From NCBI GenBank assembly GCA_023480925.1, contig JAMCWY010000009.1, forward strand, positions 1-21,079: DNA of 21,079 bases. The letters are read 5' to 3'. Under the pieces are notes generated by a model. It was given only the letters and a program-made list of their open reading frames with translations. It made no database searches and was not told where the DNA came from. Numbering within the stretch: the first letter of the stretch is position 1; each line of letters begins with the position of its first letter. Both the position numbers and the translations under genes were made by a program. Below, piece after piece: positions 1,667 through 18,272 of the stretch. This stretch comes from Patescibacteria group bacterium. GTDB lineage: Bacteria; Patescibacteriota; Minisyncoccia; UBA6257; HR35.

Positions 1667-1670
1667 GTCG

Positions 1671-1742
1671 TACCGAGGGTGGGGGTCGAACCCACGACCT
1701 GGCGCTTATGAAACGCCCGCTCTACCGCTGAGCTACCCCGGC
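1671..1742 (-). tRNA. tRNA with anticodon CAT (Met elongator, or Ile2 if lysidine-modified)
   Basis: The reverse complement folds as a 72-nt cloverleaf: GCCGGGG-TA-GCTC-AGCGGTA-GAGC-G-GGCGT-TTCATAA-GCGCC-AGGTC-GTGGG-TTCGACC-CCCAC-CCTCGGT-A. No CCA is encoded. Confidence 0.9.
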
Positions 1743-2630: not shown

Positions 2631-2701
2631 AGCGGGATAGTGGAGTAGTACCACGGAGGTCTCATAAGCCTCAGACGCAGGTGCAAATCCTGCTCCCGCA
2701 A
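2631..2701 (+). tRNA. Atypical tRNA with anticodon CAT (Met, fMet or Ile2 undetermined)
   Basis: Fold: AGCGGGA-TA-GTGG-AGTAGTA-CCAC-G-GAGGT-CTCATAA-GCCTC-AGAC-GCAGG-TGCAAAT-CCTGC-TCCCGCA-A. Positions 1 and 72 are an A/A mismatch. The D-loop lacks GG and the T-loop reads TGC instead of TTC. The variable loop is 4 nt. The ends are uncertain by 1-2 nt. Confidence 0.7.
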
Positions 2702-2711
2702 CATTAAGACC

Positions 2712-2794: not shown

Positions 2795-4288
2795 ATGTCC
2801 GAAAAAGCAAAAATAGACCCGAGCCTTGAAAAAAAACTAAAAACTAAAATTCCTCAACCGGTCAAATCTGTTTTGGAAGAACTTAAACAAAATAATTTTG
2901 AGTCTTATCTTGTCGGCGGCTGCGTCCGCGATTTATTATTAGACCGTTCGCCCAAAGATTGGGACATCGCTACTTCGGCTCAACCGGCTGAAGTTTTAAA
3001 AATCTTCCCCGACGCTTTTTATGAAAATCGGTTTGGCACGGTTGGGGTTAAGACTGGAGCGGAAGCGGAAAATTTAAAAGTAATCGAGGTAACGACTTTT
3101 CGAATTGAAAAAAATTACGAAGACTTCCGTCGGCCAAACGAAGTTAAATTCAGTCTAAACCTTGAAGACGACTTGAAAAGACGCGATTTTACCATAAACG
3201 CTCTCGCCTTAAACGAGAAGTTTCAATTAATCGATCTTTTTAACGGTCTGACCGACCTGGAAAATAAATCGATTCGGGCGATTGGTCAGGCCGAAGAAAG
3301 ATTGCGCGAAGACGCCCTGAGATTAATCCGAGCGATCCGGTTCGCGACCGAACTGGATTTTGAGATTGAACCAAAAACTTTCGCGGCGATAAAAAAATTA
3401 GCCAATCTGATTCAGTATATCGCCAAAGAAAGAGTCAAGGACGAATTAAGCCGAATTATAAATTCAACCGCGGCCAGTGCCGGTTTTGAACTCCTCAGAC
3501 AAAGCGGTCTTTTACTCGAGTTGATTCCCGAACTCGTTCGAGCCAAAGATATCCGTCAAAATAAACATCACCGCTACGACATCTATGATCATCTCCTTCA
3601 CTCCCTTGATTACGCCGCCAAAAAAAATTACTCGCTTGAAATCAAGTTAGCCGCTCTTTTTCATGACATCGGCAAACCCCTGACTAAGGCGGGCGAGTAT
3701 CCGAATGCGACTTTTTACAACCATGAAATCGTCGGCGCGAAAATGACCAGACAAATCTTGGAACGATTAAGATTTAGTAAAGCGGTCGTGGCCAAAACCG
3801 TCCATCTCGTCCGCTATCACATGTTTTATCTTGAAATTGAAAAGGTGACGATGGCGGCGGTCCGACGATTCGCCCTTAATGTCGGCGAGGAAAATTTGGA
3901 AGACTTATTCAGGTTGAGAGAGGCGGATCGGATCGGATCGGGCGTGGCCAAAGCCGTGCCTTATCGTCTCCGCTATTTAAAATTCTTAATCGGCAAGGCC
4001 AAGCTCAAACCGATTTTGCCGACGCTATTGGAAATTAAAGGCGATGAAATTATGGCCAGACTTAAAATTGAACCGGGCCCAAAAGTTGGCTGGATCTTAA
4101 AAATTCTCTTGAAAGAGGTTTTGAACCAGCCCGGCCGAAATAAAAACAGCTATCTGGCAAAACGGGTCGAAGCCCTTGGCCAGCTTTCCGACTCGGACTT
4201 AAAAAGCAAAGCGAATGAGGCAGATGAGTTTAAAAAACAAATCGAGGTTGTTAAGGAAGAAGAAGTCAAAAAAGAATTTCGCGTTTAA
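2795..4288 (+). CDS. cca: CCA-adding enzyme (tRNA nucleotidyltransferase) with an HD phosphohydrolase domain
   Basis: The nucleotidyltransferase head carries GGCVRDLLLDRSPKDWDIAT and RRDFTINALA. The HD domain carries HHRYDIYDHLLHS and LFHDIGKP. A C-terminal RNA-binding-like extension follows. The gene starts 10 nt after tRNA-Gly. Confidence 0.9.
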   Translation: MSEKAKIDPSLEKKLKTKIPQPVKSVLEELKQNNFESYLVGGCVRDLLLDRSPKDWDIATSAQPAEVLKIFPDAFYENRFGTVGVKTGAEAENLKVIEVTTFRIEKNYEDFRRPNEVKFSLNLEDDLKRRDFTINALALNEKFQLIDLFNGLTDLENKSIRAIGQAEERLREDALRLIRAIRFATELDFEIEPKTFAAIKKLANLIQYIAKERVKDELSRIINSTAASAGFELLRQSGLLLELIPELVRAKDIRQNKHHRYDIYDHLLHSLDYAAKKNYSLEIKLAALFHDIGKPLTKAGEYPNATFYNHEIVGAKMTRQILERLRFSKAVVAKTVHLVRYHMFYLEIEKVTMAAVRRFALNVGEENLEDLFRLREADRIGSGVAKAVPYRLRYLKFLIGKAKLKPILPTLLEIKGDEIMARLKIEPGPKVGWILKILLKEVLNQPGRNKNSYLAKRVEALGQLSDSDLKSKANEADEFKKQIEVVKEEEVKKEFRV

Positions 4289-4325
4289 ACTCGTCCGGCT
4301 TTGTCCAAATTTTGCCTCGATTTTT

Positions 4326-4334
4326 TGTTAAAAT
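4326..4334 (+). promoter_or_regulatory. Extended -10 element upstream of ileS
   Basis: TGtTAAAAT lies 24 nt upstream of the ATG at 4359. Confidence 0.4.
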
Positions 4335-4358
4335 AACAATACATAAAACCTGATAAAA

Positions 4359-7300
4359 ATGTTTAAAAACTTAAATGAGTTAGAGAAAAAAATCCTAAAA
4401 TTTTGGCAATCAGCCGATATTTTTGAGCAGTCGGTTAAAAAAAGAAAAGGAAAGAAATTGTTTGTTTTCTTAGAAGGACCGCCCACGGCCAACGGCTTGC
4501 CCCACACCGGCCATTTTCTAACTAGAATTTACAAAGACACGATCCTTCGTTTTCGAACGATGAAGGGCGATTACGCGCCGAGACGCGCGGGCTGGGACAC
4601 GCACGGTTTACCGGTTGAGGTTGAAATTGAAAAAAAACTCGGCTTTAAAAATAAACGCGACATTGTCGCTTACGGCGTTGATAAATTTATTCAAAAATGC
4701 AAAGAGTCAGTTTTATTTTACAAAAAAGACTGGGAAAGAGAGGATGAGCGAATGGGCTTTTGGATCGACCATACTCATCCCTACATCACTTACACTTATC
4801 CCTATATTGAGAGTCTCTGGTCGATTTTAAAAAAGATTTATCAACAAAAACTTTTAATCGAAGAAAATCGAGTCGAACCCTACTGCCCCCGTTGCGCCAC
4901 GACTCTTTCCCAGGCCGAAGTCGGCCAAGTTGACGCCTATAAAAAAGTTTTCGACCCCTCGCTCTGGTTAAAACTTAAATTAAAAGATCGCGAGGACGAA
5001 TTCGTTCTAGTCTGGACAACGACTCCCTGGACCTTGCCGGCCAACGCGGCCCTGGCCGTTAAACCTGATCTCGATTATCACCTTTATCAAACTGATCAAG
5101 GTAAAATCTGGAGCCTGCGTCTGCCCAGTCAAGCTGAAGCAGAACCAATTAGAATCGCCAAAGCGAAAGAGTTAATTGGTCTAATTTATGAACCGCTCTA
5201 TCCCAATTTGAATAAACAAAACCGGGCAATCTACAAAATTTACGCCGCCGATTTTCTTGATGCGAATGAAGGTAGCGGCATTGTTCATATTGCTCCGGCT
5301 TTCGGCAAAGATGACTTTGAATTAAGCCAAAAACACAACCTGCCGCCAATTAACCCGATTAACGAAAACGGCTGTTTTGAACTCGACCAACCGAAAGATT
5401 TAGCCGATCGGATTAATGGTCTATTCTTCAAGTCAGCCGATCCGATCATCATCAAAGATCTTGAACAGAGAAATTTGATCTTCCCGGCTGAACCGAAAGA
5501 ATTCAAACACGACTACCCCCACTGCTGGCGCTGCCACTCGCCTTTAATTTATTACCTGAGCAAAAACTGGGTAATCAAACTCTCGCGCGTGAATAAAAAA
5601 CTTCTAGCCAATAACGACAAGATCAACTGGATTCCGGCTGAAATAAAAAACCGATTCGGCCAGTGGCTCAAAGAAGGAAAAGATTGGAATCTTTCGCGCA
5701 AAAGATTTTGGGGCACACCTTTGCCAATCTGGCGCTGCGACCGCTGCGCCCAAGAAACCGTTGTCGGTAGCTTAAAAGAATTAGCCGTTCACTTTAAAGC
5801 CCAAAATGAATATTACTTTTTGCGCCACGGCCAAGCTTTGTCCAATCTTAAAAAGATTATCAGCTCCTATCCGGAAACATTTTTTAATCCCCTGACCCGT
5901 TCCGGCATCAATCAAGTCAAAAAAACTTTGGCTCAAATAAAAAAAACTAAAATCGACCTGGTCGTCAGTTCACCGCTCCGGCGCTGCCGTCAAACCGCCC
6001 AAATTATCGCGGCCGAGCTTGGTTTAAATAAAGTAATTGAATTTGATTTGAGAGAAATTGACACAGGCAAGTTTAACGGCGGACCGGTCAGAGATTATGA
6101 AAATCTTTTTCAAAACGCGCTTGATCAATATGAAAAGAAGCCGGTCAACGGCGAAAATCTCGAAGAAGTCAAACGCCGAACCGTCAAAGTTGTTTTAGAG
6201 TTGGAAAAAAAATATCGCGGCAAGAAAATACTGCTCGTCTCCCATCAAGATCCCATTCGAGTTTTGACCGCGGCCCTGACCGGTCAAACAAATGAACAAA
6301 CAATCAAAGAAAAAAAATTAAATCTGGGCTTGGCCGAATTTAAAAAAACGAATTTTCTGGTTCTGCCCAGAAACGAGGCCGGCGAGATCGATTTAAATCG
6401 GCCATTTGTTGACCAATTCAGTTGGCCTTGTCCTTGCGGCGGCGAAAAAAAACGGGTGAGTGAAGTCGCCGACGTCTGGTTTGATTCAGGCTCGGCGCCG
6501 TTTGCCGCGAACCATTATCCTTTTGAAAACAAGGATCAAATTGATTCGGGCAAACTCTTGCCGATTGATTTTATCGTTGAAGGCGTTGACCAGACCCGCG
6601 GCTGGTTTAATTCTCTTCTCGCCGTTTCAACTTTAATCAAAAATAAACCCGCCTATCGAAACGCGATTGGCGTTGGTTTTGTCACTGATAAAAACGGCCG
6701 AAAGTTATCGAAGTCGCTTGGCAATTACGTCCCGCCAGCCGAATTAATTGAAAAATATGGCGCCGACTTGGTCCGCTTTTACCTTTTTTATTTGAGCGAG
6801 GCCGGCGATCAGAAAAAATTTAATGAAGCCGACCTGCTCGTCCTGAAACGAAACTACTTTGATCTGATTTTGAACATCTTAAATTTTTACCGCATGTATG
6901 AAACGGGAGAAAAAAATCAATCCAATCGTCCGCTTAAAAAAACCATCTTAGACAAGTGGTTCGAGACGTTTCTTCGAGAAAAAACAATTGAAATTTATCA
7001 AGCTTTAAACCAGTTCAATCCAAACAAAGCCAGCCGAGTCTTGGTTGAAGTTGTTGATAATTTTTCTCACTGGTGGTTAAGACGAAGCCGACGCCGATTT
7101 CAAAAACCAAAAAATAAAACCGAGCTGCTGACCGGCTTAAAATTTTTATCCAACTATCTTTTTCAGCTAGCCATTGTCGCCGCGCCGCTTACGCCGTTTT
7201 TAAGCGAATTTCTTTACCAAGAAATAAAATCCGACCAAAAAAAATCAAAACTAAGCGTCCATCTTGAAGACTTCCGCCAGCCCGAAGCGCTCAAACTAAA

Positions 7301-7838
7301 AGAAAAAATTATTTTGGAAGAAATGACTCGCGTCCGTCAGATCATCGCCGATGCCCTGGCTTTGCGCAAAAACTCTCGATTAAAAATTCGCCAGCCCCTT
7401 AGCGATATTTATTTAGCCGAAAAAATTAAAGCCGGCTATATCGATCTGATCAAAACCGAGATTCAGGTTAAAGAAATAAAATTCGGTCAAGGACCAAGAA
7501 ATGATGATTATTGTTGCGACCAGTCTAAAAATATTTGTTTAAACACGAAAATCACGCCCGCTCTCAGAGAAGAAGGAATCGTTAACGACATTATCAGAAT
7601 CATCCAAAGTTTGCGCCAAGAAGCCGAGCTGACGCCCCAGCGGCAAATTCGGATTAATTTAATCGGGCCGAAACAGCTTCAACTGATCGCCAACGCCAAC
7701 AACAAAAGAATCCTGGCGGAAACAAACTCAAACAATCTTAGTTTTAATTCTTTAATCCCGAAAAACAAAAAATTCTTAATTGAAAAAGAATTTGACTTCG
7801 ATCCGTTCGGTTTAGCCAAAATAAGTCTAAATCTTTAA
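4359..7838 (+). CDS. ileS: Isoleucyl-tRNA synthetase (type 2) carrying an internal histidine-phosphatase-like domain insertion
   Basis: IleRS motifs are present in order: PPTANGLPHTGH (HIGH), GWDTHGLPVEVE, TTTPWTLP and GSGIVHIAPAFGKDD (CP1 editing), DQTRGWF, KLSKSLGN (KMSKS) and WWLRRSRRRF. An insertion of about 200 aa at roughly residues 477-677 reads RHG / SSPLRRCRQTA / EIDTGKFNG / VSHQD. Confidence 0.9.
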   Translation: MFKNLNELEKKILKFWQSADIFEQSVKKRKGKKLFVFLEGPPTANGLPHTGHFLTRIYKDTILRFRTMKGDYAPRRAGWDTHGLPVEVEIEKKLGFKNKRDIVAYGVDKFIQKCKESVLFYKKDWEREDERMGFWIDHTHPYITYTYPYIESLWSILKKIYQQKLLIEENRVEPYCPRCATTLSQAEVGQVDAYKKVFDPSLWLKLKLKDREDEFVLVWTTTPWTLPANAALAVKPDLDYHLYQTDQGKIWSLRLPSQAEAEPIRIAKAKELIGLIYEPLYPNLNKQNRAIYKIYAADFLDANEGSGIVHIAPAFGKDDFELSQKHNLPPINPINENGCFELDQPKDLADRINGLFFKSADPIIIKDLEQRNLIFPAEPKEFKHDYPHCWRCHSPLIYYLSKNWVIKLSRVNKKLLANNDKINWIPAEIKNRFGQWLKEGKDWNLSRKRFWGTPLPIWRCDRCAQETVVGSLKELAVHFKAQNEYYFLRHGQALSNLKKIISSYPETFFNPLTRSGINQVKKTLAQIKKTKIDLVVSSPLRRCRQTAQIIAAELGLNKVIEFDLREIDTGKFNGGPVRDYENLFQNALDQYEKKPVNGENLEEVKRRTVKVVLELEKKYRGKKILLVSHQDPIRVLTAALTGQTNEQTIKEKKLNLGLAEFKKTNFLVLPRNEAGEIDLNRPFVDQFSWPCPCGGEKKRVSEVADVWFDSGSAPFAANHYPFENKDQIDSGKLLPIDFIVEGVDQTRGWFNSLLAVSTLIKNKPAYRNAIGVGFVTDKNGRKLSKSLGNYVPPAELIEKYGADLVRFYLFYLSEAGDQKKFNEADLLVLKRNYFDLILNILNFYRMYETGEKNQSNRPLKKTILDKWFETFLREKTIEIYQALNQFNPNKASRVLVEVVDNFSHWWLRRSRRRFQKPKNKTELLTGLKFLSNYLFQLAIVAAPLTPFLSEFLYQEIKSDQKKSKLSVHLEDFRQPEALKLKEKIILEEMTRVRQIIADALALRKNSRLKIRQPLSDIYLAEKIKAGYIDLIKTEIQVKEIKFGQGPRNDDYCCDQSKNICLNTKITPALREEGIVNDIIRIIQSLRQEAELTPQRQIRINLIGPKQLQLIANANNKRILAETNSNNLSFNSLIPKNKKFLIEKEFDFDPFGLAKISLNL

Positions 7839-7940: not shown

Positions 7941-8282
7941 TTAACTTTTACTGGAGCAAAAACGGCAGGTTTCAATCGTTGGATCGATTTGTAAGCGGGC
8001 TGGTTCAATTTGTTTTTGGCACTTTAGACAAACGCCATAGATTCCTTTTTCGATCCGATCAAGGGCGTTATCAATTTGTTCCAGCCTTTTTTTGACAAAT
8101 TCGGTCTGGCTGAACGCCAAATCTTTTTCCTCGTAATGCTCGGCCGCGTCGGAAACTTCCGAAGTAATTTCCTCGCTCTCGTTTAAAACCGTGTTCTTTG
8201 TCTGCAACTCCTTTAAAACTAATTCGATCTCTTCTTTTTCTTTTAGTAACTTTTTTTTGATTTCGCTTAAGTTATCGCTCAT
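7941..8282 (-). CDS. DksA/TraR-family C4 zinc-finger protein
   Basis: An N-terminal coiled-coil is followed by CLKC-x17-CRFC, and the protein contains the typical ALDRIEKGIYGVC context. The start overlaps the upstream stop in an ATGA (8279-8282). Confidence 0.8.
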   Translation of the reverse strand: MSDNLSEIKKKLLKEKEEIELVLKELQTKNTVLNESEEITSEVSDAAEHYEEKDLAFSQTEFVKKRLEQIDNALDRIEKGIYGVCLKCQKQIEPARLQIDPTIETCRFCSSKS

Positions 8283-9886
8283 TTTAATTTTTTAATAATA
8301 TCTTCAAAACCGATCAAGACCGATGAAATGATTAATTTACCGTTGTCAATCGTCCAAATAAATTTGTAATCGTTGTCTTGGTAAGCAATACGATAATTAA
8401 CGCCAGTAAAAGTTTGGGTGACTAAATAATTGCGGGTAAAACTGCCCTGAGGCAAACCGAGATAAAGATTTGAAAAGTCTTGGAGAATCGTACTCTGATC
8501 CCAAAGACGCATAAACGGCACCGCGCCCAAGTCGTTATTTAAGTCAAAAATCAAGATCGGATATTTTCTCGTGTAAGTGTAATAAAAGATTATATCATAA
8601 TTACTGGAAAAGTAAGTCTTAAAATATTGAACGTACTTTGACTCAATAAAACTAGGCTGAATAAAGTAATCAATAACAATATTAGCTGGCAATTTTTCGC
8701 CCTGGTAGGTAAAATTAATCTCGTCAAGGCTGCCTTCTTTTTTCTGGAAAGCCAAAGCTTGTTGCCAAGCGGCCGCGAATGAATTTTGGTCGAGAGCGTT
8801 AACCGGAATTTGAATCGAAGGCAAACTTAAAGGAACGTAAGCGTTTGTGCCCTGAGGCGTAATCTCGGTCTGGCTGCCCGGAATAGGTTGATTCGCCGGC
8901 GGCGATTTCGGTTCCGCCGTTGAAGAAGTTGGCTGAACTGGTTGGGCTGGCTGAGATTGAACCGGCGGCGTTGTCTTAATCGACGAAGTTGAAATATTGA
9001 TCGTTGACGTGGCCGGAACCGGTTTGATTGACGTCGTTGAAGCCGAAGTCGTAGCCGAAACAGTCAAGGTTGTCGTCGGCGTTGAAGAAGCGACTGTTTT
9101 TAAAGTTGAAGTTGAACTGCTGGCGAGGTTAGGCGGAACGAAAACTGGTTTAACCACGTTTGTTTTGGACTGGCTTTTATTTAACTGATTATTGCCAGCC
9201 AATATTCGATTAAAAACTCCGGCCCGGTCTAAAATCAGACCGACAAAAATCAAAACAACCGCGCTCGCGAGCGGAATCCAAATAAATTTTTTGGTTAAAA
9301 ATTTTAGCGAAGGAATTTTTAACTTGAATCCGTGACCGTGACGAAGATGGAACGAAGGTAACCAGAAACTAGGAAAATGAAAACTTGGTAATTTAAAGTT
9401 AAAATGCCGCTGAGTTTTAGTTAGTTCAATTGGCCGCTCTTCCTTTATAATCGGTTCTACGGTTTTAGCCGGTTCTTCAGCCCTAACCGATTGAGACGGT
9501 TTAATCTGAGCCACTTCCGGTAGTTTTTCGTCGGACCGAGTTAAAAATAATTCTCCGGCTTCTTGGGTCGGCGGAGACGGCTCGATTGATTTTTCAAACG
9601 CACCCGAAACAGATTCAACCGGCTTAACCAAAACACTTGGCGGTTGCGGCTCGGGTCGGGGAAAATTGACCGGCCCTGAACCTTCAAAGACCTCGCTTTT
9701 GACGATCGGCTTGATTGGTTGAGACGGTGTCACTTTTGTCCGTTCAAGTTGAATTTTTTGACCTTCTGATTTTTCCGCCTGAGTGAAAGTTAAACTTTTG
9801 CTCTTAGCCGCTTCGTTTTTTAAATCATCATCCAGGGTCACAATTTTTAAATTAACTTCTAAGGGCTTCTTGTTTTGCTCTGACAT
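8279..9886 (-). CDS. Hypothetical single-pass membrane protein with Pro- and Ser/Thr-rich low-complexity regions
   Basis: The N-terminal region is Pro/Glu/Lys-rich and contains a PSFHFPSFWLPSFHL repeat. A TM helix (FIWIPLASAVVLIFVGLIL) follows, then a long S/T/P tract and a C-terminal globular region of about 200 aa. The start is set at the ATG at 9886 (MSEQNKK), which overlaps the pnp 3' end by 35 nt. GTG at 9841 is an alternative start. Confidence 0.6.
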   Translation of the reverse strand: MSEQNKKPLEVNLKIVTLDDDLKNEAAKSKSLTFTQAEKSEGQKIQLERTKVTPSQPIKPIVKSEVFEGSGPVNFPRPEPQPPSVLVKPVESVSGAFEKSIEPSPPTQEAGELFLTRSDEKLPEVAQIKPSQSVRAEEPAKTVEPIIKEERPIELTKTQRHFNFKLPSFHFPSFWLPSFHLRHGHGFKLKIPSLKFLTKKFIWIPLASAVVLIFVGLILDRAGVFNRILAGNNQLNKSQSKTNVVKPVFVPPNLASSSTSTLKTVASSTPTTTLTVSATTSASTTSIKPVPATSTINISTSSIKTTPPVQSQPAQPVQPTSSTAEPKSPPANQPIPGSQTEITPQGTNAYVPLSLPSIQIPVNALDQNSFAAAWQQALAFQKKEGSLDEINFTYQGEKLPANIVIDYFIQPSFIESKYVQYFKTYFSSNYDIIFYYTYTRKYPILIFDLNNDLGAVPFMRLWDQSTILQDFSNLYLGLPQGSFTRNYLVTQTFTGVNYRIAYQDNDYKFIWTIDNGKLIISSVLIGFEDIIKKLK

Positions 9887-11933
9887 CTTTAAGCGAAACT
9901 CGAATTTTGCCGTCGTCGGCAATACTCTTAATTACAAGCGTTAGGGTTTCGCCGACCTTGACCGCCTCGTTGGCATCCTTGATTCTTTTGTCTGACATTT
10001 CGGAAATATGAAGAAGGGCGGTTTTCTTCGGCGTAATTTCAACGATCGCGCCGAAATCCATAATTTTAACGACCGTTGCCTTAACAATCTGGCCCGGCTT
10101 TAAATCTTCGGTCATGTTTTTAATCCAAGCAACCGCCTCCTCCGCCTCCGCTTTTGTTTCAGCCGCGACAAAAACAACGCCGGTCGATTCGATATCGATC
10201 TTCGAATTTGTTTTTAAACTAATTTCTTGAATGGTCTTGCCGCCGGCGCCGATAACCAAACCGATCTTACTCGGATCAATCTGAAAAATTTCAACTACGG
10301 GCACGCCCGGCTTAAATTCTTTTCTCGGCTGACTAATAGCCCTTGCCATAAAAGCCAGAATTTCTTCGCGCGCCTTTTTCGCCTTAGCCAAAGCTTCTTC
10401 GATGATCGGTAAGATTAATCCATCAATCTTAACGTCAAGTTGAATCGCGCAAACGCCCGAACTCGTGCCGATAACTTTGAAATCCATATCGCCGTAAGCG
10501 TCTTCCGGCCCTTGGATGTCAACCAAAGTTTGATATTTTTTATCATTCTCGTAAATCAAACCAATACTGATCCCCGCGATTGGATTTTTTAACGGCACGC
10601 CCGCGTCGAAAAGCGACAAACTGCTGGCGCAAAGCGACGCCATCGAGGTTGAACCGTTCGAACTGAGACTGTCCGAAACAACTCTAATCATATAAGGAAA
10701 ATCCTCTTCGCCGGGCAGGAGCCGGACCAAACCTTTTTCAACCAAAGCGCCATGACCAATCTCTCTTCGGCCTGGCCCGCGCAAAGGTCCGGTTTCACCA
10801 ACCGAGTAGGGCGGAAAATTATAATGGTGGATAAATCTTTTCGTCCCCTCAAATTCAATTTCTTGGACAAACAACTCTTCCGTCGGAGCGGCCAAGGTCG
10901 TAACTGAGAGAATGTGGGTTAGGCCGCGTTTAAAAATGGCCGAACCGTGAGCGTTGGGCAAGACGTCTATCTCCGCCTCGAGCTTTCTGACTTGATCGAA
11001 TTGACGACCATCGATTCGTTCCGATTTTTCCAAAACTAATCTTTTAAATTCTTCTTCAATTAACTGATCCACGCCTTTTTTAATCTTGTTAAAATCGGCG
11101 CCGAGATTTTCTTTTTCCGCCTCGAGCTTTTCATTAATCGAACTTAAACTCAACTCGCCTTCTTTTTGTTTGGTTATAATTTTTTCTAAAGCGAAACCGT
11201 GATCAATTAAAAATTTTCTGCCCCCTTCGCTCAAATCTTCGACCGAAGCAAGTTTGACCCGGTTTTTGACGAAATGATCGGAAATTTCTCTCAAGCTTTT
11301 TGAAATTTTTTTTATTTCCGCTTCGCCTTTTTGACAAAGACTAAAAATATCCGCCTCAGCCGCCTCAGCCGCCTCGGCCTCAATCATATTAATTTTGTCT
11401 CGGCCGGCGACAACCAGCCAAATATCACTTTCTTTTTTTAAATTTTCCGACGGAAAAATTATCTCGCTGCCGCCGGTCTTGACTAAACTGACGCCGGCAA
11501 CTGGTCCACCCCATTCAAAACCAAGCAAATCGACAGCCAACGAACTCGCATTTAGAGCTAAAATCTCCGGCGAGTGGGCGGGGTCAAGCGACAAAACCGT
11601 GTTGATAATTTGGATATCTCGTCTTAAGTTTTTTAAGCCGGGCCGAATCGTCCGATCAATCAAGCGGCCGTTCAAAATCGCGGTTTGAGAAGGCCGGCCT
11701 TCGCGTCGAACAAAACGACTGCCGTAAATTTTGCCGGCGGCGTAAAATTTTTCTTCGTAATCAACGCTCAGAGGTAAAAAATCAATATCGCGCTCATCGG
11801 CCAAAACAACCGTTGTTAAAATAACGGTTTTGCCAAGTCGAACTAAAACCGATGCGCTCGCCCGGGCCGCCCAATCGTTAATTTCAATCTTAACCGGCTC
11901 ATTGCCAATCTTAATCTCAAATTGTTCCTTCAT
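9852..11933 (-). CDS. pnp: Polynucleotide phosphorylase
   Basis: The product has two RNase PH-like halves (ERIDGRQFDQVR), a KH domain (GAGGKTIQEI) and a C-terminal S1 domain (GQIVKATVVKIMDFGAIVEI). It is 693 aa. Confidence 0.95.
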   Translation of the reverse strand: MKEQFEIKIGNEPVKIEINDWAARASASVLVRLGKTVILTTVVLADERDIDFLPLSVDYEEKFYAAGKIYGSRFVRREGRPSQTAILNGRLIDRTIRPGLKNLRRDIQIINTVLSLDPAHSPEILALNASSLAVDLLGFEWGGPVAGVSLVKTGGSEIIFPSENLKKESDIWLVVAGRDKINMIEAEAAEAAEADIFSLCQKGEAEIKKISKSLREISDHFVKNRVKLASVEDLSEGGRKFLIDHGFALEKIITKQKEGELSLSSINEKLEAEKENLGADFNKIKKGVDQLIEEEFKRLVLEKSERIDGRQFDQVRKLEAEIDVLPNAHGSAIFKRGLTHILSVTTLAAPTEELFVQEIEFEGTKRFIHHYNFPPYSVGETGPLRGPGRREIGHGALVEKGLVRLLPGEEDFPYMIRVVSDSLSSNGSTSMASLCASSLSLFDAGVPLKNPIAGISIGLIYENDKKYQTLVDIQGPEDAYGDMDFKVIGTSSGVCAIQLDVKIDGLILPIIEEALAKAKKAREEILAFMARAISQPRKEFKPGVPVVEIFQIDPSKIGLVIGAGGKTIQEISLKTNSKIDIESTGVVFVAAETKAEAEEAVAWIKNMTEDLKPGQIVKATVVKIMDFGAIVEITPKKTALLHISEMSDKRIKDANEAVKVGETLTLVIKSIADDGKIRVSLKDVRAKQEALRS

Positions 11934-12445
11934 CTCTTCGATCTGATCAAAATCGAATCAGTTAATTCGTCCAAATCATAAAAAAAATCGACCCGCTCTT
12001 TAAGTTTAATTGAACTGTTGCGACCAAAACCAGCCGCCTCAACCTGAAGACCCTGGTTTTGAAGATACTCGACCAAGGGAATAAAATCGCCATCGCCGGT
12101 CGCGACGATAACGACATCAAGCAACTTTGAAACCCTAATCGCGTCAACGGCGATACCAACGTCCCAGTCGGCTTTTTTTTCGCCGCCGGGCATCGTGATT
12201 AAATCTTTAATCCGCAACTCAATTCCTTTTGAAACCAAAGCTTCAAAAAAAGAAATTTCTTTTTCGCTCAAATCTGATTTAATCACGTAAGCAATCGCTC
12301 GAATTTGCTGACGCGGACCCACGACCGACCGGACCAAACTGCCAAAATCAACATTGGCTTGATAAAAGTTGCGAGCGGAGTGGTAAATATTTTGGGTATC
12401 GATAAAAACACCGACACGTTGAGAAGGCGAAGCGAACTGATTCAT
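11930..12445 (-). CDS. NYN-domain (LabA/DUF88-like) predicted ribonuclease
   Basis: VGVFIDTQNIYHSARN and VATGDGDFIPLVEYLQNQG are typical of NYN/LabA PIN-like nucleases. ATGA overlaps occur at both ends, with rpsO (12442-12445) and with pnp (11930-11933). Confidence 0.75.
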   Translation of the reverse strand: MNQFASPSQRVGVFIDTQNIYHSARNFYQANVDFGSLVRSVVGPRQQIRAIAYVIKSDLSEKEISFFEALVSKGIELRIKDLITMPGGEKKADWDVGIAVDAIRVSKLLDVVIVATGDGDFIPLVEYLQNQGLQVEAAGFGRNSSIKLKERVDFFYDLDELTDSILIRSKR

Positions 12446-12705
12446 AATTTTAATTCCGAGACAATCTTTTTGTACCGTCCAACCGATTTTCTTTGGAGAT
12501 AGGTTAAAAGTTTTTTACGATGACCAACTTTTAAAATCAGGCCGCGCTTGGAATTTTGATCGCTGTGATTTTTTTGCAAATGATGCGTTAAATTTAAAAT
12601 CTCGTCGGTCAAAACCGCGATCTGAACCTCGACGCCGCCGGAATCATCTTGGCGATGACCGAATTTTTTGATCAAATCCTGAATTTTTTGTTTGCTCACG
12701 CTCAT
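12442..12705 (-). CDS. rpsO: 30S ribosomal protein S15
   Basis: The 87-aa product contains LTDEILNLTHHLQKNHSDQNSKRGLILKVGHRKKLLTYLQRK, the S15 signature. It sits in the classical position upstream of pnp. Confidence 0.9.
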   Translation of the reverse strand: MSVSKQKIQDLIKKFGHRQDDSGGVEVQIAVLTDEILNLTHHLQKNHSDQNSKRGLILKVGHRKKLLTYLQRKSVGRYKKIVSELKL

Positions 12706-13716: not shown

Positions 13717-15327
13717 TTAATTATTTTTTGTTTCGCGCAAAAGTTTAATTAGAGTCGCAATTGACCAAAGTTGGACCGGTGAACCGGTTGATCGGCCCGT
13801 CGCCGCCTCGGCAATCTCGCTCGACCAGCCCAAACCGTAATTGGCCAAATCTTTAAGCGAGGCTTCGAAAATTTTATCAATATAAATTTTATACTTCAAC
13901 CGATTTAATTTTAAAAGAGCCAAAGCGGCCAAATTGTTCAGCCAGAACCAAGAATCGCCGCGATGATAACTGGCCGGGTTCTCGCCACTTGAGTAAGCTT
14001 GATAAAAAGAGGAATTTTTATTTAAACTGGTCAGACCGCCCCAGTCGGAAAAATTTGTTTCAATCAGCTGATCAAAAATTTCCTCCCAGTGAGTTTTTTG
14101 CAAAAGGGCCGGATAAATTAAATAAGCCCAAAAGAAGTTTGGCCGCTCCAATTCAATTTGATCGTAAGTTCGAGTGATTAAATTAGTTTTAATTCGGCGC
14201 TGATAAAATTTTCTTATTTTTTCCAAATTAGAATCGGCCAGACAAACGTTAATTTTCGTCAAAGCGTTCAAAAAAAGCGCGTCGATTTCGATCGCGGTCG
14301 GCCGATCAAGACTATCCATCCAAGTTTCCTTCGCCGCCAATCGAATTGAACCATTAATAAAAAAACGATCGAGCCAAAGCCGGCAATATTTTTTAAAGAC
14401 ATCGCCATTGGTCAGAATTAACTCCGCCGAGCTAACCAAGATTAAAAGCAGAAAAGTGTCGGCCGCGGCCAAACTGGCGTCAAGTTGATTTTTATCCCAA
14501 CCCGTTTCAATCCGGCTGATAGAATCAAATAAAATTTTATTTGGCTCGATCAAATCGGACGTGGCCCAAAGCGAAATCAACTCATCCCGCTGCCAAACTT
14601 GACCAAACCAAGGCAAACCGGCGATAAAATGTTTTTTTTGGAACAAGGCGGAGAGTCTTTTAAAAAGAAAGTCAATCTGACAATCAACTTTGGCCAAAGT
14701 CGGCCGAACCGGGGAAAAATCAATTGAGTCTAAAACTTTTTTGTTCGCGGAAAAAATTTTTAAATAATCAACACTGCCCTTAAAAGCGAAAAGGATGTAG
14801 TGAACGGCTGGTTGAGATTGGCGCTTGAGATCAAAGTCGTATTTTTTTTCCAGCCACTGATTAATCAATTTCAGCTGGCCTTGATATGAAACGGTTAAAT
14901 CTAAATTCCAATTCTCTTCCTTTTGGTCAAAACTAATTTGATAACCATTAGCGATCGGCAGAAAAAAATAAACGTTGCCGACGATAATATTGGAATAAAT
15001 TTTTCTTAAATCAAGATAAATTTCAACCGCGCTATTTTTGCTGAAACTTAACTCCAAGCCCTGATCGTCCAACTTGATTTTTAGAACGAAACTTTGGCAA
15101 AACAATGTCGCCTGGTTCGGGCCCTCGATTCTGACTGCCCGAACCGGTTCAGCCAAGACAATTGAATCAATCAGTCGAAAAATTTCCGTTTCGGTTTTGA
15201 GCCAATAGCCAAAATAGCGACTAGCCTGACCAAGACCGTCGATAAACCAGTGATTGTTTTTTACCAAAACCAAGATTGGCTCATCGACCGAAACTTCTTC
15301 ATTAAGTTCGTTCAACTCAACCTTCAT
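13717..15327 (-). CDS. Amylo-alpha-1,6-glucosidase / glycogen debranching enzyme (GDE_C-type six-hairpin glycosidase)
   Basis: The C-terminal motifs YHRGDSWFWLNNLAALALL and STGSPVQLWSIATLIKLL are typical of the GDE C-terminal family. The start is set at the ATG at 15327 (MKVELNEL). The longer ORF-track start at 15516 would overlap the upstream gene by 200 nt. Confidence 0.7.
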   Translation of the reverse strand: MKVELNELNEEVSVDEPILVLVKNNHWFIDGLGQASRYFGYWLKTETEIFRLIDSIVLAEPVRAVRIEGPNQATLFCQSFVLKIKLDDQGLELSFSKNSAVEIYLDLRKIYSNIIVGNVYFFLPIANGYQISFDQKEENWNLDLTVSYQGQLKLINQWLEKKYDFDLKRQSQPAVHYILFAFKGSVDYLKIFSANKKVLDSIDFSPVRPTLAKVDCQIDFLFKRLSALFQKKHFIAGLPWFGQVWQRDELISLWATSDLIEPNKILFDSISRIETGWDKNQLDASLAAADTFLLLILVSSAELILTNGDVFKKYCRLWLDRFFINGSIRLAAKETWMDSLDRPTAIEIDALFLNALTKINVCLADSNLEKIRKFYQRRIKTNLITRTYDQIELERPNFFWAYLIYPALLQKTHWEEIFDQLIETNFSDWGGLTSLNKNSSFYQAYSSGENPASYHRGDSWFWLNNLAALALLKLNRLKYKIYIDKIFEASLKDLANYGLGWSSEIAEAATGRSTGSPVQLWSIATLIKLLRETKNN

Positions 15328-17083
15328 CTTTAAAAATTTTGTCGTAGAGATTGAGGTAGTTGATAATAAATTTTCGCCAATCGCAAATAACGGCCAAACG
15401 CCTGGCCTCGAGTTTGTTCTGAACCCGCTCATCATGATTAAGTTGGCTAAACTCGAACATAATTTTCGCCAAATCATCAACCACTTCTTTGTCTCGGCGC
15501 GTCTTTCTTTTGACAACGAAAATCCCCGGCTTTTTTAAATCAAATTCTGCGTTTCTCTCCAAATAATCGGCAAAGCCGGTTAGATCGGTCGTGATCGTGA
15601 CAACACCGCTGGCCGATGTTTCAAGCGGTGTGTAGCCCCAGGGTTCATAAAATGACGGGAAGACGCCAAGATGGCAACCGCTAATCGCTTCGAAATAGCT
15701 TAAATTCAAAAGGCCATCAACACGAGAAAGATAAGTTGGGTAATAAACAACCTTGACCAAGTCATCAGCCTGGTTGGTCAAACCCGATTCAATTAGAAGT
15801 CGAACAATCTCGTCATCGGGTCGAAGAACATAAGTTGAAAGCGGAATTCGATTTTCTTTTTGAATTTTTTGAAAAAGCCCTTGGATCTCCAAAAACTCGT
15901 CCGGCGTGAATAATGTTTCCGGCGAGATTTTTTCTTTATGAATTAAAAAGTGAACCAAACGGCTTTTAATCTCGTGGCTAAAGTTTTCAATTTTTTCGCC
16001 AAGCTCTCGATAAATATTTAAATTTCTCTCCAAAACCGGATCGATCGTTTTCGCTTCATTCGGGACAAAAAGAAAAACAAAAATCTGAACAGCGCTGTTT
16101 TGAGCTTGAAGTTTTTGTTTAAGCTGGCCCAAAGCCTGAATAAAAACATCAATGCCTTTGTTTTTTATTTCCGGCCGGCCGCTGATAAAATAAATCAGAC
16201 TATTTTTCAGCTCGACCTTGTAAAATGGCGCGAAAAAATAAAGAAGAAAGTCTTGGAAATTATTTTTATTCGAACGATGAGCGTAAGTAATTTCTTCAAC
16301 CGTCGGGAAACGGGAAAAATTCAAACCATTGGGCAAGATCGCGTCAGCCTTGCGGCCTAAAAATTTTTCCGCCTCGACCGCCAAAACCGCGCTGACACAA
16401 GAAAAATACTCGGCCTTTTGAGCCGAAAACTTTTCAATGCTGTGCTTCGCCTCAACGCCCAAACGGTAAGCTTCGATTTCGGGGTTAATTAAATCAAGAT
16501 GCTCCCAAAAATTGATTTGATTGGCGGCTAAACTCCGGCCCAAGACTGTCGCGTGGGTCGTGAAAACTTTTTTGAAAGAAGTTAGGCCGTCGAAAAGAAT
16601 AATCCCGCCCGCCAGCCATTCGTGAAGATGAATAATTTTTTTTGACCCGCTAAAAGCTTGGTCGAAATTTTTTAGAAATAAAGCGGTTGCCTTTGACCAA
16701 GCGACGGGTTGATCGTAGTCAAAGCCGGTCCGGCGGCTATCAATTCGATATTTTTCCCAAAGCTCGTATTTAAGCAAGTTCGGGTTGTTTGAAAAATTTT
16801 TAAAGTCAATCAAAAATCCTTTTGGTCGACTCTCAACCAGCCACTCACCATAATAAACGCCGACGCCCGCTTTTTCGCTCTCGTTAATGATATCTTTAAA
16901 ATCACTCGGCGGATCGAGCCGATTAAATTCCTGAAAACTTTTCTCCGGCAAGAACGGACCAATAACTAAATAATCTTCGCCGAATTCATTTTTAATATAG
17001 AAACTCTTCTCTTTCAAAACCGTGTGAATGCCGCCGACCTTATTGGCGATTTCCCAGCTAGCCTCAACCAAAAATCTTCTCAT
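15317..17083 (-). CDS. Glycogen synthase, eukaryote-like GT3 family
   Basis: The N-terminus EASWEIANKVGGIHTVLKEKS and the motif FPSFYEPWGYTPLE match the GT3 (Gsy-type) glycogen synthase signature. Confidence 0.8.
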   Translation of the reverse strand: MRRFLVEASWEIANKVGGIHTVLKEKSFYIKNEFGEDYLVIGPFLPEKSFQEFNRLDPPSDFKDIINESEKAGVGVYYGEWLVESRPKGFLIDFKNFSNNPNLLKYELWEKYRIDSRRTGFDYDQPVAWSKATALFLKNFDQAFSGSKKIIHLHEWLAGGIILFDGLTSFKKVFTTHATVLGRSLAANQINFWEHLDLINPEIEAYRLGVEAKHSIEKFSAQKAEYFSCVSAVLAVEAEKFLGRKADAILPNGLNFSRFPTVEEITYAHRSNKNNFQDFLLYFFAPFYKVELKNSLIYFISGRPEIKNKGIDVFIQALGQLKQKLQAQNSAVQIFVFLFVPNEAKTIDPVLERNLNIYRELGEKIENFSHEIKSRLVHFLIHKEKISPETLFTPDEFLEIQGLFQKIQKENRIPLSTYVLRPDDEIVRLLIESGLTNQADDLVKVVYYPTYLSRVDGLLNLSYFEAISGCHLGVFPSFYEPWGYTPLETSASGVVTITTDLTGFADYLERNAEFDLKKPGIFVVKRKTRRDKEVVDDLAKIMFEFSQLNHDERVQNKLEARRLAVICDWRKFIINYLNLYDKIFKDEG

Positions 17084-17093
17084 TATTTTTAGT

Positions 17094-18260: not shown

Positions 18261-18272
18261 TTGAAGATTTGG

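What the first reader, a model, noticed from the sequence alone, without database searches (positions are those of the whole stretch)
5787..6389. Complete histidine-phosphatase (PGAM / His_Phos_1-like) domain inserted inside isoleucyl-tRNA synthetase
The 1159-aa ORF is colinear with type-2 IleRS from the HIGH motif to the anticodon-binding region.

The insertion sits between the two halves of the zinc knuckle, WRCDRC (5730-5747) and WPCPCGG (6423-6443). IleRS normally has only a short linker there, running from ..SxxEL.. to ..DLxRPyvD.. Here about 200 extra residues are present in frame.

The extra residues carry all signature blocks of the histidine phosphatase superfamily, in the correct order:
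- YYFLRHGQALSN (RHG at 5823-5831)
- VSSPLRRCRQTAQII (5967-5999)
- LREIDTGKFNG
- ILLVSHQDPIRVL (His codon at 6243-6245)

The catalytic Arg-His, second Arg, acidic residue and second His all appear intact. This argues for a maintained, folded and possibly active domain rather than junk.

I am not aware of an aminoacyl-tRNA synthetase with an embedded phosphatase. Speculative roles are removal of 2'/3'-phosphates or cyclic phosphates from tRNA ends, hydrolysis of a phosphorylated nucleotide or alarmone, or a regulatory function. The gene sits next to cca (HD phosphohydrolase) and tRNA genes, which gives the neighbourhood a tRNA end-processing theme.
Basis: partly seen in the sequence, partly recalled or inferred. 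Interest (0 to 1): 0.8.

Follow-up and report, generated by a model that had tools for sequence, protein, structure and literature searches.

The report
Histidine phosphatase nested inside isoleucyl-tRNA synthetase
An uncultured Patescibacteria bacterium carries a complete, apparently active phosphatase domain inside its isoleucyl-tRNA synthetase, and relatives keep the same phosphatase attached to or next to that gene in several arrangements, which suggests an undescribed partner activity for a core translation enzyme.

Summary
ORF 4359-7838 is a type-2 IleRS (TIGR00392, 779 bits). About 196 residues (aa 480-675) replace the roughly 6-residue linker of the CP3 zinc knuckle. The insert is a complete branch-1 histidine phosphatase (PF00300, E=3.5e-35; AF2 pLDDT 94; Foldseek hits PspA, GpgP, PhoE and CobC).

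It is not an assembly artefact. All 120 best IleRS relatives (41-55% identity, contigs up to 923 kb) have the insert, and R489, H490, E599 and H629 are invariant.

The new finding concerns linkage. The insert belongs to a Patescibacteria-specific subfamily (P-E loop motif; 35-50% identity among members, about 23% to generic members) that stays linked to ileS in several architectures:
- nested in CP3;
- nested at two other IleRS sites, or in tandem (2-4 copies, all with catalytic residues);
- a free 190-aa gene directly upstream of an insert-less ileS (35 of 42 evaluable 70%-identity clusters);
- fused to TsaC directly downstream of ileS;
- fused to ArgRS.

This argues for a dedicated, catalytic IleRS partner. 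The substrate is unknown. The cca/tRNA neighbourhood argument is not supported. I found no description in the literature.

The parts
4359..7838 (+). ileS ORF, 1159 aa: type-2 isoleucyl-tRNA synthetase with a nested phosphatase
   Evidence: NCBIfam TIGR00392 ileS scores 779.3 bits against a cut-off of 621.4. The best PDB relatives are 8c8u and 1ile, at E about 1e-203.
4503..4514 (+). Class I signature motif HTGH (aa 49-52)
   Evidence: Translation. Across 120 relatives the motif is HxGH in 51, GxHH in 67 and GIHS in 2.
5730..5747 (+). WRCDRC, first half of the CP3 zinc knuckle (C460, C463)
   Evidence: DNA read directly. Both Cys are 120/120 conserved. The CP3 assignment comes from PMC7191050.
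5796..6383 (+). Inserted branch-1 histidine phosphatase domain with its short linkers (aa 480-675)
   Evidence: Boundaries come from the alignment to 8c8u. PF00300 E=3.5e-35. AF2 pLDDT is about 94-97 here. Foldseek finds PspA, GpgP, PhoE and CobC at E about 1e-12 and TM 0.72-0.78 normalised to target length.
5823..5831 (+). R489-H490-G491: catalytic Arg and nucleophilic His
   Evidence: DNA cgc cac ggc. R489 and H490 are 120/120. They are also kept in the free-standing, TsaC-fused and ArgRS-fused forms and in extra copies.
5868..5876 (+). Y504-P505-E506: the subfamily-specific '[WY]-P-E' loop motif
   Evidence: P505 is 114/120 and E506 is 111/120. The motif is present in free-standing and TsaC/ArgRS-fused members and absent from generic His_Phos_1, which have a gap at position 506.
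5982..5984 (+). R542, second phosphate-binding Arg
   Evidence: 119/120. Conserved in all architecture classes.
6054..6056 (+). E566 in LREID, the predicted general acid/base
   Evidence: E in 101 and D in 19 of 120. The assignment is by homology to E89 of dPGM (established knowledge of the superfamily).
6153..6155 (+). E599 of the conserved G-E-[SN] motif
   Evidence: 120/120.
6243..6245 (+). H629, second catalytic His (VSHQDP)
   Evidence: 120/120. Conserved in all architecture classes.
6423..6443 (+). WPCPCGG, second half of the CP3 zinc knuckle (C691, C693)
   Evidence: Both Cys are 120/120. The spacing from C463 to C691 is 224-238 aa in all 120 relatives.
6702..6716 (+). KMSKS-type loop, here KLSKS (aa 782-786)
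   Evidence: Translation. 118 of 120 relatives have KMSKS.
6951..7403 (+). Anticodon-binding domain (aa 865-1015)
   Evidence: PF08264 E=4.4e-18.
2795..4288 (+). Upstream neighbour: CCA-adding enzyme with an HD domain. Context only; the adjacency is not conserved.
   Evidence: PolyA_pol, PolyA_pol_RNAbd and HD. Relatives have other upstream genes.

Best explanation
The insert is a catalytically competent branch-1 histidine phosphatase. Its predicted mechanism is a phospho-His490 intermediate, with R489, R542 and H629 binding the phosphoryl group and E566 acting as general acid. It belongs to a Patescibacteria-specific subfamily that is a dedicated partner of IleRS.

In this genome the domain is held on short, conserved linkers at the tip of the CP3 zinc knuckle of the catalytic body. 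IleRS therefore carries a third catalytic site, in addition to the synthetic and editing sites.

Shown:
- the domain, its fold and the insertion site;
- invariance of the catalytic residues;
- lineage-wide distribution;
- persistent genetic linkage of this subfamily to ileS in at least four architectures.

Inferred:
- The phosphatase acts in the IleRS reaction context rather than as a passenger.
- It hydrolyses a phosphomonoester.
- My preferred substrate class is a small nucleotide-type phosphomonoester generated or used at IleRS, for example AMP (the product of transfer and of IleRS's ATP-consuming editing), rather than a tRNA end. Two reasons: all close structural relatives with the same helical cap act on small molecules, and the tether point on IleRS is variable.

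The substrate itself is not established.
For: Domain and fold:
- PF00300 E=3.5e-35.
- AF2 full-length model pLDDT 91.9 and pTM 0.86. Insert model pLDDT 93.9 and pTM 0.90.
- Foldseek hits PspA 4ij5/6, GpgP 4qih, PhoE 1h2e and CobC 6nru.

Selection:
- R489, H490, E599, R607 and H629 are 120/120. R542 is 119/120. E566 is E or D in 120/120 at 41-55% overall identity.
- Insert pairwise identity is 0.45, similar to the anticodon domain at 0.47.
- Every extra copy in multi-copy proteins keeps the catalytic set, apart from copies cut off at a protein end.

Linkage to ileS:
- All 120 best IleRS relatives are fused.
- 85 of 92 long proteins among the top phosphatase hits are IleRS.
- There are three different insertion sites, at about aa 480, 730 and 856, plus tandem copies.
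- Free-standing members (41-45% identical to the insert) lie 1-2 nt upstream of an insert-less ileS.
- In a metagenome scan that used only phosphatase motifs, 57 of 75 clusters at 90% identity, and 35 of 42 evaluable clusters at 70% identity, have ileS directly downstream.
- A TsaC-phosphatase fusion overlaps the stop codon of an insert-less ileS. An ArgRS-phosphatase fusion also exists.
- Control: only 2 of 72 non-CPR ileS loci have any His_Phos_1 ORF nearby.

Subfamily identity: 35-50% among all IleRS-linked forms against 22-25% to generic members, with a shared P-E motif.
Against: - No biochemical data exist, and the substrate is a guess.
- In 55 of 67 loci the free-standing gene sits in the same ArgRS-phosphatase-IleRS block. 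Part of the adjacency could therefore be inherited synteny within one class rather than independent selection. The ArgRS and TsaC fusions may simply reflect neighbouring genes.
- No IleRS-side signature residues distinguish phosphatase-linked IleRS from other type-2 IleRS; there is one weak position, P1093.
- Removing AMP has no obvious selective rationale where adenylate kinase is present.
Confidence: 0.55

Rival explanations
1. tRNA-end repair. The phosphatase removes a 2'/3'-phosphate, or a phosphate left after cyclic-phosphate opening or pyrophosphorylation, from the acceptor end of tRNA-Ile while the tRNA is on IleRS. This restores a chargeable A76.
For: - The domain sits on CP3, one of the connective-peptide insertions in the Rossmann-fold catalytic domain. 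That these insertions lie near the acceptor-end path in class Ia synthetases is general knowledge, not tested here.
- All fusion partners (IleRS, ArgRS, TsaC) work on tRNA or for tRNA.
- In this window, cca with an HD domain and tRNA genes lie upstream. cca and tgt lie a few genes from the ileS/tsaC-phosphatase pair in L173.
Against: - cca adjacency is not conserved.
- The closest structures are all small-molecule phosphatases with a helical cap, not the cap-less macromolecule-acting type.
- The tether site varies over three positions and the domain also works as a free protein. This argues against a precise hand-off of a tRNA end.
- There is no reason for the activity to be specific to tRNA-Ile.
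- No kinase or ligase partners of RNA repair were seen nearby.
Confidence: 0.15
2. Unrelated metabolic enzyme riding with ileS. The domain is the cell's divergent short cofactor-dependent phosphoglycerate mutase, or another housekeeping phosphatase. Linkage to ileS serves only co-expression in a reduced genome.
For: - The best NCBIfam hit of the insert is archaeal-type dPGM NF038349 (108 bits; 102 bits for free-standing P0172).
- Jaffe et al. 2020 report that PGM is apparently absent from several shallow Parcubacteria clades, 'possibly too divergent' to detect (PMC7304191).
- The ArgRS-phosphatase-IleRS block is largely inherited synteny.
Against: - It scores far below every equivalog cut-off: dPGM_arch 108 against 225, pgm_1 19 against 82, CobC 90 against 163, PspA 70 against 350.
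- Insertions into IleRS at three different sites, and tandem amplification to 2-4 active-looking copies, are hard to explain by co-expression alone.
- Linkage survives where the ArgRS neighbour is replaced (12 of 67 loci) and in the ileS-downstream TsaC fusion.
Confidence: 0.15
3. Non-hydrolytic role. The domain is a phosphometabolite or phosphate sensor that regulates IleRS allosterically, or it serves as a dimerisation or tRNA-binding scaffold. The active-site residues are kept only for ligand binding.
For: - The domain is rigidly docked: short linkers with high pLDDT and full-length pTM 0.86.
- Conserved linker residues N483, Y485 and P670.
- Histidine-phosphatase folds do occur as binding modules in other proteins (general knowledge).
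Against: - The complete catalytic set, including the nucleophile and the acid/base, is invariant in all architecture classes and in every extra copy not cut off at a protein end. This is the pattern of enzymes, not of pseudo-enzymes.
- Free-standing single-domain members are abundant: 1418 clusters at E<=1e-20.
Confidence: 0.1
4. Artefact: chimeric assembly, a frameshifted gene fusion, or an intein-like or mobile insertion without function.
For: The source is a single metagenome-derived contig. CPR IleRS can carry other nested insertions: a RAYT-like transposase domain and a GNAT domain in P0303.
Against: - The same architecture occurs in 120 or more independent clusters from NCBI, JGI, ENA and Logan assemblies, on contigs up to 923 kb.
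- Composition is uniform.
- The reading frame is intact and the zinc-knuckle Cys residues are conserved on both sides.
- There are no intein splice motifs at the borders.
Confidence: 0.01

Closest known systems
Type-2 (eukaryote/archaeal-like) bacterial IleRS, e.g. Priestia megaterium IleRS2 (PDB 8c8u) and Thermus thermophilus IleRS (1ile)
   Same: Colinear from the signature motif to the C-terminal domains, at E about 1e-203. Shares the CP1 editing domain, the CP3 zinc knuckle as in T. thermophilus, KMSKS and the anticodon-binding domain.
   Different: 196 residues replace the roughly 6-residue CP3 hairpin linker. No solved IleRS or other aaRS chain in the PDB sequence search matches both parts.
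Short branch-1 histidine phosphatases: PspA (4ij5), GpgP Rv2419c (4qih), PhoE (1h2e), CobC (6nru), riboflavin-pathway HFP (9mmh)
   Same: Same fold (Foldseek E about 1e-12, TM 0.72-0.78 normalised to target length), same size of about 190-210 aa, same catalytic residues.
   Different: Only 20-25% identity. Below every NCBIfam equivalog cut-off. Has its own [WY]-P-E loop motif. Nested in, or genetically linked to, IleRS.
Bifunctional RNase H / acid phosphatase (Rv2228c type, NCBIfam PRK07238)
   Same: A CobC-like branch-1 histidine phosphatase fused to an enzyme that acts on nucleic acid. It is the second-best NCBIfam hit (99.8 bits). Such fusions also appear among distant hits (P0010).
   Different: That is an end-to-end fusion to RNase H, not a nested insertion in a synthetase. 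The score is far below the cut-off (326).
IleRS with an N-acetyltransferase domain (NCBIfam NF040702 'ileS_w_GNAT')
   Same: A precedent, curated by NCBI, for an IleRS carrying an extra enzymatic domain. One CPR relative (P0303) carries both the phosphatase and a GNAT domain.
   Different: A different domain and chemistry. The window protein matches only the IleRS part of that model (293 bits against a cut-off of 1999). I did not determine where that model places its GNAT domain.
CP1 editing domain of class Ia synthetases
   Same: A separate hydrolytic domain nested in the connective peptide of the Rossmann fold, giving a second catalytic site on the same polypeptide (PMC7191050 and PMC11685878).
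   Different: CP1 is universal in IleRS, ValRS and LeuRS and hydrolyses mischarged products. The phosphatase is lineage-specific, sits in CP3, and has a phosphoryl-transfer active site of unknown target.

Membership tests
Isoleucyl-tRNA synthetase (NCBIfam TIGR00392 equivalog; class Ia) | Whole-protein score above the curated equivalog cut-off | tested here: met
   779.3 bits against 621.4, in two stretches split by the insert.
Isoleucyl-tRNA synthetase (NCBIfam TIGR00392 equivalog; class Ia) | Class I signature motifs HIGH and KMSKS | tested here: met
   HTGH at aa 49-52 and KLSKS at aa 782-786. Relatives have HxGH or GxHH, and KMSKS.
Isoleucyl-tRNA synthetase (NCBIfam TIGR00392 equivalog; class Ia) | CP1 editing domain with the conserved Thr-rich motif | tested here: met
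   W219-T220-T221-T222-P223-W224-T225 is invariant in 118 sequences. Matches isolated IleRS editing-domain structures 1wk8 and 1udz.
Isoleucyl-tRNA synthetase (NCBIfam TIGR00392 equivalog; class Ia) | Isoleucine-specific aminoacylation activity | not testable with these tools
   Requires an enzyme assay.
Histidine phosphatase superfamily, branch 1 (Pfam PF00300) | Profile score above the gathering threshold over most of the model | tested here: met
   121.9 bits against 21.7, profile positions 2-168 of 194.
Histidine phosphatase superfamily, branch 1 (Pfam PF00300) | Catalytic core: RHG (Arg plus nucleophilic His), second Arg, acid/base Glu, second His | tested here: met
   R489, H490, R542, E566 and H629 are present and conserved at 119-120 of 120, with E566 as E or D.
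Histidine phosphatase superfamily, branch 1 (Pfam PF00300) | Alpha/beta fold of the superfamily | tested here: met
   AF2 pLDDT 93.9. Foldseek probability 1.00 to PspA, GpgP, PhoE and CobC.
Histidine phosphatase superfamily, branch 1 (Pfam PF00300) | Phosphomonoesterase or mutase activity via a phospho-His intermediate | not testable with these tools
   Requires an enzyme assay with an H490A control.
Cofactor-dependent phosphoglycerate mutase (NF038349 dPGM_arch; TIGR01258 pgm_1) | Score above the equivalog or subfamily cut-off | tested here: not met
   108.2 against 225, and 18.9 against 81.7.
Alpha-ribazole phosphatase CobC (TIGR03162) | Score above the equivalog cut-off | tested here: not met
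   90.5 against 162.9.
Phosphoserine phosphatase PspA (NF045917) | Score above the equivalog cut-off | tested here: not met
   70.3 against 350, although PspA is the best structural match.
Intein / self-splicing insertion | N-terminal Cys/Ser and C-terminal His-Asn followed by Cys/Ser/Thr at the borders; Hint-fold blocks | tested here: not met
   The borders read ..HFKAQNEYY.. and ..LPRNEAGEIDLNRP... There is no Hint or intein Pfam hit.

The most novel reading that the evidence does not exclude
A large clade of Patescibacteria needs a dedicated phosphatase for isoleucyl-tRNA synthesis. IleRS there works with, and here physically contains, a third catalytic site that removes a phosphoryl group from a so-far unrecognised intermediate, product or tRNA-Ile state. 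That would be a new enzymatic step attached to a universal translation enzyme. It has been re-wired repeatedly: as a free gene, nested at three sites, amplified in tandem, and fused to the t6A enzyme TsaC.
Probability: 0.35. Interest if true: 0.88.

Novelty: new variant of a known kind. Interest (0 to 1): 0.78.

Why it matters
Aminoacyl-tRNA synthetases are among the best-studied enzymes. Their extra domains (editing, tRNA-binding, signalling) have repeatedly revealed new biology. No aaRS-phosphatase partnership appears in the literature I could search, including two recent large IleRS phylogeny and structure studies.

Here the partnership is conserved across a major uncultured bacterial radiation. 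It appears in several independent genetic arrangements, always with intact catalytic residues.

If it is functional, it implies an unknown phosphate-dependent step or control in charging tRNA-Ile in organisms with minimal metabolism. The question is directly testable with recombinant protein. It also matters for annotation: NCBI's pipeline names these proteins only 'class I tRNA ligase family protein', and the domain could be miscounted as a glycolytic mutase in metabolic reconstructions of CPR genomes.

Tried and rejected
1. Mis-assembly or chimera: rejected. 120 independent fused relatives exist on contigs up to 923 kb, and GC content is uniform.

2. Intein or mobile insertion: no splice motifs and no Hint hit.

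3. Conserved cca/tRNA neighbourhood: rejected. Four relatives show NusA-PPase-ileS-DprA (twice), ArgRS-ileS-RecO and M48-ileS-MetAP.

4. IleRS-side signature residues that distinguish phosphatase-linked IleRS from other type-2 IleRS: only one weak position, P1093, so there is no docking-site clue.

5. Polarity of fusion against fission: NJ trees with bootstrap give well-supported subgroups, but the deep nodes have only 24-66% support. The first midpoint-rooted tree grouped one fast-evolving unfused clade with archaea, and the identity matrix does not support that grouping. The number and direction of rearrangements remain open.

6. Measuring the distance from H490 to the synthetic site or the tRNA path: not possible, because model coordinates are not exposed.

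8. Literature searches found nothing relevant. Terms tried: isoleucyl-tRNA synthetase with histidine phosphatase; His_Phos_1 with tRNA-synt_1; aaRS with CPR, insertion and phosphatase; IleRS with Patescibacteria; aaRS with phosphoglycerate mutase and Parcubacteria; Sua5 with histidine phosphatase.

9. The first metagenome query with 21 sequences failed for lack of a conserved stretch. It succeeded with 8 closer sequences.

Full report
**1. What is in the window**

ORF 4359..7838 (+) encodes 1159 aa. Pfam finds:
- tRNA-synt_1 in two stretches (E=1.6e-112, first stretch aa 11-483);
- His_Phos_1 at aa 486-650 (E=3.5e-35, 121.9 bits against a cut-off of 21.7);
- Anticodon_1 at aa 865-1015;
- DUF5915 at aa 1057-1137.

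NCBIfam calls the whole protein ileS: TIGR00392 scores 779 bits against a cut-off of 621. I checked the key codons on the DNA. WRCDRC is at 5730-5747 and R489-H490-G491 is at 5823-5831. GC content does not change across the insert.

**2. Size and site of the insertion**

The best solved relatives are Priestia megaterium IleRS2 (8c8u) and Thermus thermophilus IleRS (1ile), at E about 1e-203. The alignment pairs query 6-479 with chain 11-478 and query 676-1049 with chain 485-853. So aa 480-675 replace about six residues.

Other type-2 IleRS from bacteria and archaea span the stretch G452..S712 in about 70 residues, against 261 here.

The two Cys pairs (C460/C463 and C691/C693) are the zinc motif of the CP3 subdomain described for T. 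thermophilus IleRS (PMC7191050). The phosphatase is therefore nested at the tip of the CP3 hairpin.

**3. The inserted domain**

An AlphaFold2 model of the insert with its zinc knuckle has pLDDT 93.9 and pTM 0.90. The full-length model has pLDDT 91.9 and pTM 0.86, with 94-97 across the insert and its short linkers. This suggests a rigidly docked lobe.

Foldseek against the PDB returns the short branch-1 histidine phosphatases: PspA, GpgP Rv2419c, PhoE, CobC, Entamoeba phosphoserine phosphatase and the riboflavin-pathway HFP. These hit at E about 1e-12, TM 0.72-0.78 normalised to target length, and 20-25% identity.

By sequence the insert stays below every NCBIfam equivalog cut-off:
- dPGM_arch: 108 against 225;
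- CobC: 90 against 163;
- PspA: 70 against 350.

It is a member of the superfamily but of no characterised family.

**4. Not an artefact, and under selection**

The window protein is in the public collection as 'class I tRNA ligase family protein [Patescibacteria group bacterium]'. All 120 best IleRS relatives carry PF00300. They share 41-55% identity, are 1130-1361 aa long, and come from NCBI, JGI, ENA and Logan assemblies on contigs up to 923 kb. Source names include Parcubacteria, Paceibacterota, Minisyncoccia and Sungiibacteriota.

A genome scan added Yanofskybacteria, Spechtbacterales and a Peribacteraceae member.

In the 120-sequence alignment:
- R489, H490, E599, R607, H629 and the four zinc Cys are 120/120;
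- R542 is 119/120;
- E566 is E or D in all 120;
- the Cys-to-Cys spacing is 224-238 aa in every sequence;
- the insert is about as conserved (0.45 pairwise identity) as the anticodon-binding domain (0.47).

**5. The same phosphatase subfamily is tied to ileS in several architectures**

A full HMMER scan of 1.84 billion representatives with the insert alone gave 1141 hits at E<=1e-10. Among the top 150, 85 of 92 proteins longer than 260 aa contain IleRS parts. The rest of the top list are free-standing proteins of 185-205 aa at up to 46% identity.

The architectures are:

(a) Nested in CP3, as in the window.

(b) Nested at two other IleRS positions. One is at about window aa 730 (P0278, and the first copy in P0231). 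The other is at about aa 856, before the anticodon domain (second copies in P0193, P0231 and P0265). There are also tandem copies in CP3 (P0241) and four copies in P0168. Every copy not cut off at a protein end keeps the catalytic set.

(c) A free-standing gene ending 1-2 nt before the start codon of an insert-less ileS. The junction reads TAA-T-ATG in both L086 and L089. The CP3 of that IleRS keeps the zinc knuckle with a short linker.

(d) Fused to the C-terminus of TsaC/Sua5, the threonylcarbamoyl-AMP synthase of t6A synthesis. In L173-L175 this gene overlaps by 1 nt the stop of an insert-less ileS.

(e) Fused to the C-terminus of ArgRS (P0205).

The gene order in (c) is ArgRS-phosphatase-IleRS-(one small ORF)-RecO-CLIPPER-class II aaRS-M16. 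Apart from the small ORF, this equals the order around the fused IleRS of a complete Sungiibacteriota genome, with the phosphatase moved inside ileS.

**6. How strong is the adjacency?**

I scanned metagenome contigs with two motifs taken only from the free-standing phosphatases, using no IleRS sequence. This returned 80 loci. Local HMMs for the IleRS N-part, the IleRS C-part and the phosphatase classified them.

After dereplication at 90% identity (75 clusters):
- 57 have ileS directly downstream;
- 5 have it 0.3-1.4 kb downstream;
- 1 is fused;
- 7 show none in the available DNA (5 of these have under 1.3 kb available);
- 5 cannot be evaluated.

At 70% identity, 35 of 42 evaluable clusters are directly adjacent.

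As a control, only 2 of 72 ileS loci from other phyla (736 kb) contain any His_Phos_1-like ORF. One of them is Urinicoccus massiliensis, where a generic 202-aa member lies 4 nt downstream of ileS.

There is a caveat. In 55 of 67 loci the upstream neighbour is the same ArgRS family, so part of this signal is inherited synteny. The pair persists with other upstream genes in 12 loci.

**7. One subfamily**

Phosphatase domains from all IleRS-linked architectures share 35-50% identity with one another and 22-25% with generic His_Phos_1. They share a three-residue-longer loop after RHG that carries a [WY]-P-E motif, which generic members lack.

A profile of the free-standing form finds 1418 clusters at E<=1e-20. 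The best 120 are all single-domain proteins of 186-226 aa. Sources name them only 'histidine phosphatase family protein' (Staskawiczbacteria, Patescibacteria group) or 'PhoE'.

**8. Evolution**

I built neighbour-joining trees of IleRS with the phosphatase excised.
- Fused, unfused-with-neighbour and TsaC-linked IleRS fall in one clade relative to other type-2 IleRS (bootstrap 83).
- Several subgroups are well supported (86-100).
- Fused and unfused groups are interleaved. For example, the unfused group U4 is 55% identical to the fused group F20, while the fused groups F16 and F20 share 46%.
- The deep nodes are weak, at 24-66%.

I conclude that the association is old in this clade and that its architecture changed more than once. 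I cannot give the direction or the number of events.

**9. Mechanism**

Shown:
- a complete, conserved catalytic machinery;
- a compact fold with the helical cap typical of small-molecule phosphatases;
- rigid nesting in CP3;
- persistent linkage to ileS.

Inferred:
- The domain hydrolyses a phosphomonoester through a phospho-His490 intermediate. This follows from the established mechanism of the superfamily.
- It acts in the IleRS context.

I lean towards a small nucleotide-type phosphomonoester rather than a tRNA end. AMP is the obvious candidate, as the product of transfer and of IleRS's ATP-consuming editing. My reasons:
- The nearest structures all act on small molecules.
- Tethering works at three different IleRS sites, from a neighbouring protein, or as a free protein. 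This fits co-localisation better than a precise hand-off.

This is a preference, not a result.

The rivals are:
- a divergent phosphoglycerate mutase hitch-hiking with ileS, which gains some plausibility because PGM is reported as apparently absent in several shallow Parcubacteria clades (PMC7304191);
- a non-catalytic sensor or scaffold.

No IleRS-side signature residues were found that could point to an interface.

**10. Known or new?**

None of the literature searches found a description. Two recent IleRS phylogeny and structure papers mention neither a phosphatase nor Patescibacteria (PMC10485003 and bioRxiv 10.64898/2026.02.03.703510). Most subscription-journal papers are not in the library, so this is absence of evidence within what could be searched.

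The sequences and their Pfam domains are already in public databases.

I rate it a new variant of a known kind: an aaRS with an extra nested catalytic domain. The domain class and its dedicated linkage to IleRS appear to be undescribed.

Noticed in passing
window 4503-4514; alignment of P0048-P0167: The class I signature motif is HTGH in the window. It is GxHH in 67 and HxGH in 51 of the 120 fused relatives, and GIHS in 2. GxHH is the swapped motif reported to give IleRS2 hyper-resistance to mupirocin (PMC10485003). Both motif types also occur among the unfused CPR IleRS.
   Followed up: partly
window 6396-6398 (aa 680) and 6702-6716 (aa 782-786): The window IleRS deviates at two otherwise near-invariant positions. 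N680 stands where 119 of 120 relatives, and P. megaterium IleRS2, have His in the D-L-H-R-P-Y-V-D motif. KLSKS stands where 118 of 120 have KMSKS.
   Followed up: no
P0303 (1066 aa), aa 326-472 and 921-1065: A CPR IleRS carries three nested or appended extras. A REP-associated tyrosine transposase-like domain lies inside the editing region (NF047646, 81.3 bits against a cut-off of 80; Pfam Y1_Tnp). The phosphatase lies in CP3. A GNAT acetyltransferase domain follows shortly after the CP3 return. The protein may be cut off by the end of its contig.
   Followed up: partly
window 1670-1742 (-) and 2631-2702 (+): Two tRNA genes with a CAT anticodon flank the tRNA cluster upstream of cca-ileS. One could be the lysidine-dependent tRNA-Ile2 or the initiator rather than elongator tRNA-Met. 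I did not examine this.
   Followed up: no
L077 (Urinicoccus massiliensis NZ_LT635493.1) 2890-5988 and 5992-6600: In a Firmicute, a generic 202-aa His_Phos_1 gene (canonical RHGQTQWN...DSPLT, not the P-E subfamily) starts 4 nt after a GxHH-type type-2 ileS. This may be coincidence or a second, independent ileS-phosphatase pairing. It was 1 of only 2 such cases in 72 control loci.
   Followed up: partly
L001 9525-10004 and L004 5520-6014: In the two closest long-contig relatives, an inorganic pyrophosphatase gene overlaps the start of the fused ileS, within a NusA-PPase-ileS-DprA-GyrB order.
   Followed up: no
window 13717-19442 (-): A glycogen-metabolism cluster: GDE_C debranching-type protein, eukaryote-type glycogen synthase (PF05693, E=1e-122), a GH57 enzyme and a GT4 glycosyltransferase. 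MiaA follows at 19571-20470.
   Followed up: no
window 7941-12705 (-): An RNA-metabolism cluster on the minus strand: S15, an NYN-domain protein, PNPase, a 547-aa ORF with no Pfam hit (8279-9922, whose listed TTG start overlaps the PNPase 3' end by about 70 nt) and a DksA/TraR zinc-finger protein.
   Followed up: no
P0263, P0300, P0302, P0247 (382-418 aa): There are stand-alone proteins made of two tandem phosphatase domains of the same subfamily. Both copies keep the catalytic residues. Their genomic context was not examined.
   Followed up: no
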